A stretch of DNA of 64,000 nt from Ruditapes philippinarum (Eukaryota), in contig NW_026865261.1 in NCBI RefSeq assembly GCF_026571515.1, positions 124,001 to 188,000 on the forward strand, given 5' to 3'. Below are positions 40,352 through 50,147 of the stretch, piece by piece; within the stretch, counting starts at the first letter, position 1; every line of letters begins with the position of its first letter. Below the pieces are notes generated by a model. The model saw only the letters and a program-made list of their open reading frames with translations. It made no database searches and was not told where the DNA came from. The translations under genes were made by a program, and so were the position numbers.

Positions 40352-43300
40352 TTAACAAAATCCACAATAATGCTCGCAGTTGGCGTTCTGTGCGCGGAAC
40401 TGGTCTTGGCAGACGATACTTGCTGCCAGTTTACACGTTGCTTCCGGTGTGCTGTCAGTACAACCTGCTGTTGTTTTGAAAAAAAAATACAAAATTAAAA
40501 TTTTAAATTTGCGATAGGGCACATATGAAACGTTCAAAAAAGATATATTCTTGCATATTAGACTGACGTTTCCGTTAGTTTTATCCATACCGGAAAGATT
40601 ATCTGGCATGGGTGTGCCACTGAACAATGGCATGTTAAGGATGATGAAATTTCAACCGTTATGAATGAAGATAATTTCAAACGCTGTTGTAAGGAAGACG
40701 TTACTGGTGTAATGACATAAATTTCCATGGAAAATTCTTTTATTAAGGTAAAGTGTTTAAATTATAATGCAATATGTAGGATATGCAAGCCTCCTTGCCG
40801 CCCATTGAAACCCCCTCGGGTCGAGTATTTCTATCCAAATTGCAACATATGACAGATATAATTAGTCTGAGACAATTATGTACTTATTTAAAACTGAAAA
40901 TTTGTTTCACAAGATACAGACAAAGATCAAGGAGGTTATTTCGGATTCATTTCCAATTTTACTTAACAACAAGGAGAACAAAGTGACCCAACAAACCCGG
41001 GACATTATCAGCAGAATTAAATAATATTATATTATTTAATTCTGCTGATAGAAAATAAACATAATATGAATTCATCATTATATTTTTTAATAACATTGTG
41101 ATCAAAAGGTAGATATACGTGTACAAATAATTTGTTGTCTATACAGGATTCCGTAGCTGCAAAACAACCTATTCGCCCTTGAGTTTGTTCACACTGTTGC
41201 TTATTAAACCTTATGTTGGCAGCTTACCGTGCTTTTTCACAATTCACTATCGTGATCGACATAATAAGTATCTATATCTCGTATGTAGGACTATGTTTGT
41301 ATGTTATGTGGAATTATCTACTAAACCTTAATCGAGTTGATTAATAGCTTGTTCTTTATGCAATTACATTATTTTGACCCTTGTGATTCTTTTTTTCGCT
41401 GTTTCATTACATACCTTGCACTATCCTTCCTGCTGGTTGCATAACAAAATATCAAAATATCTTGTATGGGCCTTTAGTCTTGTTATATTAAAGAACAAAC
41501 TTATTTTCTTTTTACTTTTGTGCCAGTTGTATTACGGTATAATCCCAAGTTGTGTGTTGACTTTCGCGCTGATTTTATAACAGTACAATTACATACCTTT
41601 GTTCCAGTATATTACGGTATATTCCAGATACCTTGTGTTGACCTTTAATCTATTTGTTAAATGGTAATGTCTACATATATTGTGTATTTTTTGTGTTCAT
41701 TGTTTAATCAATATACCTTTTGTTGACACTTGTGTTGGTTGTATAACGATAATATATCCATACCTTGCGTCGGTATTTCCTGCTGGTTGTTACAGAAACT
41801 ACTTACCCTGTGTTGACTCAGTTACTTGTTGTGTAAAATTATTATAAACATTTCATGTGTTCACTTTCACTTTTAGTCTGTTGCAGTGTAAGATATATAA
41901 CTTGTGTTGGCCGTTGTCCCGAAATTAGCACGAGTTAAAAATTACATTCCTTGGATTGTCATTTGTACAAGTTGTATAGCGATAAAATCTACATACCTTG
42001 TATATACAATTGTTGTGGTTGTGCCGCTTTTTACATTATCAGCTACATACCTTGTGTTGAATTAACATGGGGTTAAAATTGCAAACCGTGTGTTGGTAAA
42101 CAATTCAACTGTTGAATTTCGGTATGATCTTCATTCGATATATCTATTTATTTATTCACTGTATGATGATAAAATATAGATACCTTGTGTTGATAGTGTG
42201 ATGGTTTAATTACCGTTTAATCTACATACCTTGTGTTTACGTTCGTGCTAGTAGAATAACGGTGTAATCTACATTCATTATATTGATTTTTGCACTGACT
42301 GAAGATAAAATATAGATACTTGTGTTGACTAATGTGTTGGTTGAATTACCGTTTAATCTACATACCTTGTGTTGACCCTTGTGCTGATTGTGTCGTTCTA
42401 ACAACTGGAGGTTTTGTTGTTGCCAGTTCCCTGTGACAACGACTATTACAAAGGTCATCTTTGCAACAATTAAAACATGACGAATTCGTTAGATGGAATG
42501 AATTTGAGCCATAAATCATTTCACAAACCTAATGGAAAAGACAAAACCAAACATGTATTGATAAAGAGAGATTGCCATATTGTAAAGAAATGAAGCAACT
42601 AAAATATATGTAATATTCTTGGTGGGTTTCATACCGTAATGTTTTGTTTATAGGGCCAAAGTTGTTTGTCAATTAATATCTTAATTTTGACATACTGATA
42701 CAAGAGTAAAAAGGGACAGAGGTTTGTCAGTATATGTATTTTTTATCTCTCTATGCATATTTTTTCATAAAAGTAGAATATTTAATTTCAAATATTCGAA
42801 ATGTAACGTAGACAGCTTTGATAAAATGATTTTTAGAATATAAATATATTGACATTTTGTCTGATATTGCAAATATCGAGTGCATAAAATGTTGTTATTT
42901 AAGGTCATACATTTCTTTCGAGGCGTCGATCTCAAGGTTGTGAATATTAAGTTAAACGCAACAAAATCGCAATTTCATACAGGTGATATTTTTTTTAATT
43001 ACTACGCGAAGGCAAGCACAACACAATGCAAATTTTACAGTTTTTTCTTTTCTTTGTCTCGCTAAGTCTTTTTGCAATATTTGACCTATTTCAATGTGCT
43101 TTTGATAACATACGTTGCTAAGTTCAAACTTACTGATTTGCTAAAACAGTCAGTTTTCCTGAGCTTTTGACCGCTTGGGCTGCGGGCGTAAGACTCAACA
43201 CAAACCTTTAGACAAAAAGAACAACAAAGACGATTGCATTTAATCATTGACAAATATTTTTTAATCCATTTAACCTGGCAATATCTCAACACTTTAAAGT

Positions 43301-49300: not shown

Positions 49301-50147
49301 AATAATAGTATCTTAATAAAAGTCGTTGTTAAACAATAATGCTTATTTAATAGTTAAAGTCAACATATCTGTATATATGTCCCTGAAATAGATACGGTAA
49401 TAAAAGACATTAATGTTCGCATTAAAGTCGCTGTTATAAAACAATAAAAGCAATAGTCACTGTGTATATATAGAAGTTGCTGAAATAAAACAATAAAGGC
49501 AATAGTCATTGTGTATGTATAAAAGTTGCTGAAATAAAACAATAGTGCCTGTATAAAAGTCATTGAAATAAAACAATTATGCCTATAAACAAAAAGGCCC
49601 TGTCATAAAACAATAAATAAATAATAGACGGAGAAAAAACAGAACAATAAAGACAATAATGTACGTGTTGAAGTAAGTCGTTGTAATAAAACGATAATAG
49701 CATAAGTATCTGTATAAAAGTCACTGAACTGAACTACAATGCCTATATTGAAAAAGTCGCTGTAACTCAAACAAATAAAAACAATAATGTCTATATGATA
49801 GACACTGAAATAAAACAATAATGATAAGCATTTAATGCGACAACATTATCCAACCCTTATCACATTTTCCTTCAAACAAGATTGACAAAACATCCATAAC
49901 TTTTAATTGTAACAACAATTCAACCCCATATTGTAGAAAGATGAATTATTGAGGCTATTATATAAACTTTATATGCATTCATGAATATAATTTCGTACAT
50001 ACTTATTTTAACGCCCAACATTAAATTTTTAGCATCTCTAGAAGAAAGTACATTGTACCTTAACAAAACAAGCCTATTACATATAATATAAAATACTGTT
50101 AGTTAGCAATCAGTAAATAGTCATGGTACAAAAAAAAACTTACACAT
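40352..50147 (-). CDS. LU-4: secreted 2x LU + ShKT protein (273 aa, 9 exons)
   Basis: Exons 50147-50144, 49026-48976 (WTSTLSVVFYILIAIVQ), 48108-48020, 47433-47362, 46188-46026 (IVGKR), 44001-43907, 43205-43134, 42528-42366, 40464-40352 (CTDSTPEATCKLAASIVCQDQFRAQNANCEHYCGFC*). Total 822 nt, all GT-AG, no internal stop. Confidence 0.92.
41006..41050. repeat. Perfect 45-bp palindrome (22-bp arms)
   Basis: TATCAGCAGAATTAAATAATAT-T-ATATTATTTAATTCTGCTGATA. Confidence 0.9.
41370..42390. repeat. Degenerate ~47-bp minisatellite containing the exon-8 splice donor (LU-4 intron 8)
   Basis: Repeated CTACATACCTTGTGTTGAC (minus strand GTCAACACAAG|GTATGTAG). Confidence 0.8.
46410..47073. mobile_element. 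664-bp non-autonomous DNA transposon, copy 2 (LU-4 intron 4)
   Basis: Same TIRs and length as 1814-2477, with high internal identity. Confidence 0.9.
47160..47300. repeat. Degenerate pentanucleotide microsatellite
   Basis: TGATA-like units followed by ATATC/ATCGC-like units. Confidence 0.7.
49030..49825. repeat. Degenerate minisatellite in LU-4 intron 1
   Basis: Same unit family as 36645-37150, in a longer array. Confidence 0.8.

What the first reader, a model, noticed from the sequence alone, without database searches (positions are those of the whole stretch)
40352..50147. LU-4 is a chimera: 5' half from LU-3, 3' half from LU-5
Seen: LU-4 exons 1-5 and upstream DNA match LU-3 (exon 3 is identical in protein, with 2 nt differences). 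Exons 7-9 and downstream DNA match LU-5 (last exon has 3 aa differences). Exon 6 is about equally distant from both (~17-18 of 32 aa). Inference: unequal crossover between neighbours created a new LU1/LU2 combination, with the breakpoint at ~43.3-46.0 kb. The odd exon 6 points to a third donor, gene conversion or fast evolution.
Basis: partly seen in the sequence, partly recalled or inferred. Interest (0 to 1): 0.7.

Follow-up and report, generated by a model that had tools for sequence, protein, structure and literature searches.

The report
Clam hybrid gene fused mid-domain
In the Manila clam, the middle one of three neighbouring genes for likely secreted three-finger-fold proteins is a spliced hybrid, with its front from one neighbour and its back from the other, joined inside a protein domain, likely by one old tandem duplication, a known way for new genes to arise.

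Summary
The chimera is real. LU-4 is NCBI's LOC132728409 of Ruditapes philippinarum (274 aa: signal peptide, two Ly6/uPAR domains, Thr-rich linker, six-cysteine ShKT-like tail). Exons 2-5 match LU-3 (82-98% nt); exons 7-9 and introns 6-8 match LU-5; the spacers are duplicated too, the geometry of an anti-Lepore tandem duplication. It is no mis-join: RNA contigs from 2 of 4 runs laid (two studies) splice across it. Mercenaria has an LU-5-type gene and LU-3-type genes and no LU-4 type among the hits, so LU-4 is the derived one. One correction: exon 6 is equidistant only as protein. Its DNA is LU-3-like (67-72% against 53%; 21 against 8 diagnostic sites), so the junction most likely lies in intron 6 (43,411-43,906), inside the second domain: finger 1 from LU-3, fingers 2-3 from LU-5. 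No third donor was found in the assembly. Exon 6 carries excess amino-acid change, including three single-base changes to the LU-5 residue: suggestive only. Homologous crossover is not shown; a lost LU-3 paralogue is not excluded; function is untested. A clean new example of a known process.

The parts
40352..50147 (-). LU-4, the chimeric gene (LOC132728409), start codon to stop codon, nine coding exons, 274 aa
   Evidence: splice joints of exons 4-8 in RNA contigs
50144..50147 (-). LU-4 exon 1 (start codon plus one base)
   Evidence: same in LU-3
48976..49026 (-). LU-4 exon 2, hydrophobic signal-peptide-like stretch, LU-3 type
   Evidence: 83-88% nt to LU-3 versions, 47% to LU-5
48020..48108 (-). 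LU-4 exon 3, finger 1 of LU domain 1, LU-3 type
   Evidence: 98% nt to LU-3, 53% to LU-5
47362..47433 (-). LU-4 exon 4, finger 2 of LU domain 1, LU-3 type
   Evidence: 82-85% nt to LU-3, 64% to LU-5
46026..46188 (-). LU-4 exon 5, long loop with Gly-Lys-Arg and end of LU domain 1, LU-3 type (shares the long loop that LU-5 lacks)
   Evidence: 82-83% nt to LU-3, 58% to LU-5
43907..44001 (-). LU-4 exon 6, finger 1 of LU domain 2; LU-3 lineage in DNA, fast-changing in protein
   Evidence: 67-72% nt to LU-3, 53% to LU-5; 21 against 8 diagnostic sites, p 0.024; BLASTN hits LU-3 exon 6 only
43411..43906 (.). Most likely junction interval, in intron 6; aligns to neither parent
   Evidence: LU-5 intron homology begins at 43,410; best split between exons 6 and 7
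43134..43205 (-). LU-4 exon 7, finger 2 of LU domain 2, LU-5 type
   Evidence: 82% nt to LU-5, 39-41% to LU-3
42366..42528 (-). LU-4 exon 8, end of LU domain 2 and Thr-rich linker, LU-5 type
   Evidence: 83% nt to LU-5, 60% to LU-3
40352..40467 (-). LU-4 exon 9, six-cysteine ShKT-like tail and stop, LU-5 type
   Evidence: 91% nt to LU-5, 62-68% to LU-3; Pfam ShK E 0.22, under the cut-off
43907..56399 (.). Copy A of the duplicated unit: LU-5 3' half, spacer, LU-4 5' part (about 12.5 kb)
33774..43410 (.). Copy B of the duplicated unit: LU-4 3' half, spacer, LU-3 5' part (about 9.6 kb)
38068..40220 (.). Spacer between LU-4 and LU-3; 82% to the spacer 50,997-53,145; holds a 520-base dispersed repeat, with flanks found only in the two copies and contig C8930
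27243..37486 (-). LU-3, donor lineage of the 5' part (LOC132728417; NCBI's model ends early, after exon 7)
53391..60129 (-). LU-5, donor of the 3' part (LOC132728410), exons 2-9

Best explanation
LU-4 is an intact, spliced hybrid gene whose exons 1-5 match LU-3 and whose exons 7-9 match LU-5, most likely made by one old tandem duplication whose junction likely lies in intron 6, inside the second Ly6/uPAR domain. Shown: the sequence switch, the duplicated spacer, the spliced transcript across the switch, the LU fold of the model. Inferred steps: (1) the ancestor had LU-5 followed by LU-3; (2) after the split from Mercenaria the stretch from LU-5 intron 6 through the spacer to LU-3 intron 6 was duplicated; (3) because every gene has a phase-0 intron at this place the fusion was in frame, putting LU-5's fingers 2-3, linker and tail behind LU-3's promoter, signal peptide, LU1 and finger 1 of LU2; (4) later exchange between the tandem copies kept the spacer and exons 1-3 alike while exons 4-6 drifted, and exon 6, the foreign third of the hybrid domain, gathered extra amino-acid changes. 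The protein is predicted to be secreted and most likely works as an extracellular binding protein, like other soluble LU proteins, with a new mix of binding loops under LU-3's regulation; its ligand is untested.
For: Geometry and per-exon identities; introns 6-8 align only to LU-5 and introns 1-2 to LU-3. One change-point between exons 6 and 7; the 2-lnL interval runs from about codon 147 in exon 6 to the start of exon 7. Exon 6: 21 against 8 diagnostic sites for LU-3; third positions 10 against 3 (p 0.09) and 13 against 2 (p 0.007) for the two LU-3 versions; protein tree puts it with LU-3 (84/62) and LU-5 with Mercenaria LOC123542422 (94/88). RNA: one 502-nt contig of run X18 runs exon 5-6-7-8 with 2-3 differences in each of the three listed exon pieces; run X16, another study, has joints 4-5, 5-6, 6-7, 7-8. 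DNA: contigs of run X1 bridge both homology edges (42,779-43,591; 45,651-46,435). Polarity: LU-5 exons 3-5 and 6 have Mercenaria LOC123542422 as best other hit (81%, 80%); LU-4 exons 7-8 hit LU-5 (78%), then that gene (53%), ahead of Mercenaria's LU-3-type genes (40%); the AU test rejects LU-4 with LU-5 for exons 3-5 (p 6e-11). Model: pLDDT 80, both domains mostly above 90; residue 158/159 falls between finger 1 and finger 2 of LU2; top folds are uPAR.
Against: Protein AU tests are not significant for exon 6 (p 0.097 for LU-4 with LU-5) or exons 7-9 (p 0.065 for LU-4 with LU-3); nucleotide tests with LU-2 as outgroup reject nothing in any part, and the best exon 6 tree puts LU-4 outside both. 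The exons 7-9 protein tree groups genes by species (88/73 and 85/73), so 3' halves may have been exchanged more than once and the outgroup is less clean there. Exons 4-6 are about twice as diverged from LU-3 at silent sites as exons 7-9 are from LU-5 (p 0.005 and 0.052), which one event explains only with deep LU-3 polymorphism or later conversion. Introns 3-5 and the first 495 bases of intron 6 align to neither parent in the window, so no junction sequence can be read. Two raw-read RNA runs of 4 showed next to no exon cover and no splice joints (4-6% of each read). Only two other genera have close relatives in the searches.
Confidence: 0.72

Rival explanations
1. Two-step history: the 5' donor was an older LU-3 paralogue. 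The duplication fused its exons 1-6 to LU-5's exons 7-9, and the donor was later lost or fused with today's LU-3 near exon 3. LU-4 is still a chimera, but today's LU-3 is not the direct donor of exons 4-6.
For: Step in silent divergence: exons 2-3 pS 0.10-0.17, exons 4-5 0.39-0.43, exon 6 0.50-0.67 (p 0.002); introns 3-5 mostly unalignable while the two LU-3 versions still align there at 72-83%. Mercenaria has three LU-3-type proteins.
Against: Needs more events; no such paralogue in the assembly; the two LU-3 versions already differ by pS 0.18, which added to the 0.26 of exons 7-9 comes near the observed values; conversion in the middle of the unit also gives the step.
Confidence: 0.17
2. The junction lies in or before exon 6, or exon 6 is a patchwork of short LU-5 conversion tracts.
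For: The 2-lnL interval includes the last third of exon 6; LU-4 has the LU-5 residue at 5 positions where both LU-3 versions differ; protein identity is even.
Against: LU-4 to LU-5 identity in exon 6 equals the LU-3 to LU-5 baseline (49 of 93); at codons 131 and 155 the LU-5-type base sits beside an LU-3-type silent base in the same codon; the exon-6 side of intron 6 does not align to LU-5.
Confidence: 0.06
3. LU-4 is the ancestral combination and its neighbours are the recombinants, or a whole-gene duplicate was overwritten by long gene conversion without a duplication ending inside genes.
For: The 3' tree groups by species; conversion can give the same mosaic as unequal crossing-over (PMC4041002, passages read).
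Against: LU-5 pairs with one Mercenaria gene over exons 3-8; the homology is continuous through exons, introns and the whole spacer over about 10 kb.
Confidence: 0.04
4. Assembly artefact: a mis-join of haplotypes.
For: Contig-level assembly; LU-2 in this window carries several one-base insertions against its intact copy on contig C8930, which looks like local sequencing error.
Against: The copies are only 66-92% alike; the spliced RNA crosses the switch in two studies; DNA contigs bridge both edges; contig C8930 has the same LU-4 to LU-3 order.
Confidence: 0.01

Closest known systems
Anti-Lepore fusion genes of the beta-globin cluster (HBB/HBD; PMC4041002, passages read)
   Same: Fusion gene with the 5' part of the downstream parent and the 3' part of the upstream parent, lying between both parents; later conversion blurs parts of it.
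   Different: The parents here are far older paralogues (silent sites near saturation, pS about 0.8) with no alignable introns at the junction; both parents are kept, which that paper reports for one taxon only; secreted LU protein, not a globin.
Chimeric genes from tandem duplication in Drosophila (PMC5460883 and PMC4503668, search listing and start of abstract only; early amino-acid bursts in jingwei-type chimeras are recalled, not read)
   Same: A duplication with ends inside genes makes a new reading frame under one parent's promoter; faster protein change after fusion.
   Different: Here both parents are paralogues with the same exon layout, so the domain order is unchanged and only the loops are mixed.
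Segment exchange in snake three-finger toxin genes (ASSET; PMC2474615 and PMC2711939, search listing and start of abstract only)
   Same: Loops of a three-finger fold are exchanged between paralogues.
   Different: Those are short segments within exons of single-domain venom proteins; here a whole 3' half with introns and spacer moved, the clam protein has two LU domains and a tail, and nothing here shows it is a toxin.
Multi-domain Ly6/uPAR proteins (uPAR, C4.4A, TEX101) and mollusc two-LU clusters
   Same: Fold, cysteine pattern, Pfam UPAR_LY6 and Toxin_TOLIP matches near the cut-off, mollusc clusters in the Atlas.
   Different: The chain ends in a six-cysteine domain, with no hydrophobic anchor tail; it has a long Gly-Lys-Arg loop; no ligand is known.

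Membership tests
Anti-Lepore-type chimeric gene | 5' part from the downstream parent, 3' part from the upstream parent | tested here: met
Anti-Lepore-type chimeric gene | Lies between both parents with the spacer duplicated (copy gain) | tested here: met
Anti-Lepore-type chimeric gene | Parental combinations are older than the chimera | tested here: met
   Mercenaria LU-5-type and LU-3-type genes; clear for exons 3-6, weaker for exons 7-9; one outgroup genus only
Anti-Lepore-type chimeric gene | Formed by homologous unequal crossing-over in shared sequence | tested here: inconclusive
   No shared intron sequence at the junction; about 500 bases align to neither parent. A non-homologous duplication is equally open.
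Anti-Lepore-type chimeric gene | In-frame, transcribed and spliced product | tested here: met
   (2 of 4 RNA runs); protein not shown
Ly6/uPAR (three-finger) domain | Conserved cysteine frame ending in C-C-x4-C-N and three-finger beta fold | tested here: met
   LU1 of LU-4 has C-Q-P in place of C-N
Ly6/uPAR (three-finger) domain | Pfam score over the curated cut-off | tested here: inconclusive
   LU-4 20.2 bits against 21.2 (Toxin_TOLIP) and 17.9 against 24.8 (UPAR_LY6); LU-5 passes both
ShKT domain | Six cysteines in about 37 residues ending C-x3-C-x2-C | tested here: met
   sequence; spacing of the family recalled; full-length Pfam ShK alignment 1-37
ShKT domain | Pfam ShK score over the cut-off | tested here: not met
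   12.5 bits against 20.9 for LU-4; no hit for the tails of LU-2, LU-3, LU-5; model confidence under 65 there. Called ShKT-like only.
ShKT domain | Potassium-channel blocking or other activity | not testable with these tools
   needs an assay

The most novel reading that the evidence does not exclude
LU-4 is a natural experiment in re-fitting a domain fused from two old paralogues: the LU-3-derived finger 1 of domain 2 evolved fast and converged by point mutation on LU-5 residues (Asn131, Asp145, Ser155) to suit its new LU-5 partner fingers; and swapping of 3' halves and tails between LU-3-type and LU-5-type genes recurs in venerid clams as a source of new binding surfaces in an undescribed, probably convertase-cut LU family.
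Probability: 0.2. Interest if true: 0.62.

Novelty: new member of a known kind. Interest (0 to 1): 0.4.

Why it matters
It is a well-supported, retained and spliced fusion gene in a bivalve with both parents kept, and the junction cuts a disulphide-rich domain at an exon boundary, mixing the loops that usually carry binding in three-finger proteins. That gives a small, testable system for asking how mid-domain chimeras are tolerated and re-tuned. The process itself is textbook, so a specialist would find it neat, not surprising. Three paper searches for this family in clams or molluscs returned nothing and a fourth nothing relevant; subscription journals were not searched.

Tried and rejected
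Third donor for exon 6: a search of the own genome gave 10 matches at E up to 0.1; after LU-4 itself the best are the two LU-3 versions, then LU-5; the rest are at E 0.009 or worse (only the best candidates are scored). Shared repeat or microhomology at the junction: none found. Nucleotide trees rooted on LU-2: no topology rejected in any of 3 parts, the outgroup is too distant. First fold from 5 sequences was poor (pLDDT 47) and was not used. Raw-read RNA runs X21 and X23: cover was almost all on intronic repeats, no splice joints; this says little, as 4-6% of each run was read and the tissues are unknown. Contig depths were not used as copy number or expression level. The runs were found by holding this stretch, so 4 of 4 DNA runs covering it does not show that LU-4 is fixed, and one holder may be the assembly's own source. 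Whether C8930 is an allele or a second copy was not settled: it is collinear with window 18.1-41.7 kb only and matched nothing else collinear in 284 kb of the window's contig. No contact analysis of residues 131, 145 and 155 was possible, and they vary freely in 105 family members, which weakens the re-fitting idea. Earlier scan notes: 3 look-ups, nothing. PMC9976758 held the terms only in its reference list; PMC4503718: abstract and outline seen, not used as evidence; PMC3350314 not held. No supplements were read.
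Full report
Setting. The window is part of a 294-kb contig of a 1.41-Gb assembly. The spliced model of LU-4 is identical to an NCBI protein of Ruditapes philippinarum, LOC132728409. Five related genes lie in the window; LU-5, LU-4 and LU-3 run in that order on the minus strand and share nine exons with the same phases. Each encodes a hydrophobic leader, two Ly6/uPAR (LU) domains of three exons each, a Thr-rich linker and a six-cysteine tail. A model from 105 sequences has mean pLDDT 80, with both LU domains mostly above 90 and the linker and tail low; its best fold matches are uPAR chains. 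The tail resembles ShKT but scores under Pfam's cut-off.

The observation. Self-BLAST shows one block repeated in tandem: LU-5 3' half, spacer and LU-4 5' part match LU-4 3' half, spacer and LU-3 5' part at 66-92%. Per exon, LU-4 is 83, 98, 85 and 82% identical in DNA to LU-3 for exons 2-5 (47-64% to LU-5), and 82, 83 and 91% to LU-5 for exons 7-9 (39-68% to LU-3). Introns 1-2 align to LU-3, introns 6-8 only to LU-5.

Not an artefact. I laid 4 of the RNA runs and 4 of the DNA runs out of 24 listed. One 502-base contig of run X18 carries exons 5, 6, 7 and 8 of LU-4 in order, and run X16 from another study has the joints 4-5, 5-6, 6-7 and 7-8. The two raw-read runs showed no joints. All four DNA runs cover all 30 bins of 41-51 kb, though repeats inflate some bins; contigs of X1 bridge both edges of homology. 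A second contig, C8930, begins in LU-4's last intron and continues through an LU-3 gene and LU-2; it does not reach the junction.

Where the junction is. I used the C8930 version of LU-3 as a second LU-3 sequence. At 235 sites where both LU-3 versions agree and differ from LU-5 (gapped columns and sites where LU-4 matches neither were left out), LU-4 follows LU-3 105 to 10 in exons 2-5, 21 to 8 in exon 6, and LU-5 80 to 11 in exons 7-9. The best single split is between exons 6 and 7; after exon 5 it is 15.8 log units worse. Exon 6 is as far from LU-5 as LU-3 is (49 of 93 bases each) but 62 and 67 of 93 identical to the LU-3 versions; a sensitive BLASTN finds LU-3's exon 6 and not LU-5's. LU-5 homology begins 205 bases before exon 7, at 43,410. 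The junction is therefore most likely in 43,411-43,906. On the model this is the base between finger 1 and finger 2 of the second domain. The support for exon 6 is moderate: p 0.024 for the site count, trees 84/62, AU tests not significant.

Which gene is derived. Searches found close relatives only in Mercenaria mercenaria and Mactra antiquata. Mercenaria LOC123542422 pairs with LU-5 over exons 3-6 (92/91) and is the best non-Ruditapes hit of LU-4's exons 7-8. LOC123542423 and two close relatives are the best non-Ruditapes hits of LU-4's exons 3-5 and of LU-3's exon 6. No LU-4-type combination was among the hits. So the LU-5 combination is older than the split of the genera and LU-4 is the new one. 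Against a fully clean picture: for exons 7-9 the tree groups genes by species with weak support, and Mercenaria's LU-3-type proteins differ in which tail they carry, so 3' exchange may recur.

Why exon 6 looks odd. It has more non-synonymous difference from LU-3 than exons 4-5 do (pN 0.22-0.25 against 0.06-0.12; p 0.006 and 0.018), while the silent excess is not significant (p 0.18 and 0.42). At five positions LU-4 has the LU-5 residue; two (Ile151, Asp157) also occur in Mercenaria's LU-3-type genes and may be ancestral, and three (Asn131, Asp145, Ser155) are one base from the LU-3 codon, two of them keeping LU-3's silent base. That reads as point convergence, not copied tracts, and it explains the even protein identity. 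These are common conservative changes at variable sites, picked after the fact, so adaptation is not shown.

Age and later exchange. Silent divergence is 0.26 for exons 7-9 against LU-5, 0.39-0.43 for exons 4-5 and 0.10-0.17 for exons 2-3 against LU-3; the parents are near saturation (about 0.8). In the middle of the unit (about 39.9-37.4 kb) copy A, copy B and the C8930 version are about equally distant, while at LU-4's 3' end the C8930 version is 90-96% like copy B and 79-87% like copy A. This fits exchange between the tandem copies in the middle of the unit, or very old polymorphism at LU-3, whose two versions differ by pS 0.18 and pN 0.09. A lost LU-3 paralogue as donor of exons 4-6 remains the main rival.

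Mechanism and comparison. The layout is that of an anti-Lepore chromosome (PMC4041002, passages read). Whether the break used homology cannot be told, as the parents' introns do not align there. By inference the fusion survived because it was in frame and kept all cysteines, and it gives LU-5's second-domain loops and tail LU-3's promoter and first domain. The family is large (464 representatives at E up to 0.001) and I found no paper on it. Function as a secreted binding protein is inferred from the fold and the lack of an anchor.

Verdict. Observation confirmed; interpretation right in outline, corrected in the place of the junction and the origin of exon 6. A new, well-supported member of a known kind; interest 0.4.

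Noticed in passing
window 46026-46188 (exon 5) and alignment A3: The long loop of LU domain 1 holds Lys-Arg or Arg-Arg in 78 of 103 family members (shuffles: mean 25, maximum 37) and Gly plus two basic residues in 51 of 103 (shuffles: mean 3); the same loop of domain 2 in 42 and 38 of 98; control loops show none of this. It looks like a convertase-cut and amidation signal inside an LU domain, across a large mollusc-rich family; possibly more interesting than the chimera.
   Followed up: partly
L001:4143 to L002:4002 (contig C8930) against window 27243-37486: The two LU-3 versions differ at 3-30% of residues per exon, while LU-4's last exon is identical in protein and LU-2 is about 89% alike in DNA: very deep polymorphism at LU-3 if they are alleles.
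   Followed up: partly
window 32092-32100: LU-3's exon 7 donor site differs from the C8930 version and NCBI's model leaves the frame of the family there (212 aa); a damaged allele or an assembly error.
   Followed up: partly
window 20521-21973: LU-2 has several one-base insertions in exons 5 and 6 against its intact copy on C8930; more like long-read error than decay.
   Followed up: partly
window 54979-55285 and 41300-42400: The end of exon 8 with its donor site is repeated 6.4 times in 48-base units in LU-5's last intron, with decayed copies in LU-4's; reading on past the donor meets a stop at once, which would give a form without the tail.
   Followed up: no
proteins P0006-P0010 (Mercenaria): Three LU-3-type proteins differ in their tails, one carrying a tail like the LU-5-type gene's; LOC123542424 has an LU-5-type exon 5 with a different 3' half: possible independent swaps.
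   Followed up: partly
window 46410-47075: A 666-base high-copy element with imperfect inverted ends in LU-4 intron 4, 94% like 1814-2479; many RNA reads lie on it.
   Followed up: partly
window 39261-39790: A 520-base dispersed repeat in the spacer, with over 3000 candidates in the genome.
   Followed up: partly
window 62374-63864: Satellite of 25-base units, about 60 copies, upstream of LU-5.
   Followed up: no
window 10605-11738: A 378-codon open frame that looks like the end of a LINE element; only a weak zf-RVT match (E 0.17).
   Followed up: partly
window 12182-15328: LU-1, on the plus strand, seems to end in a Thr-rich stretch and a hydrophobic segment instead of the six-cysteine tail, so it may be membrane-bound; no LU-1 match was seen on C8930.
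   Followed up: no
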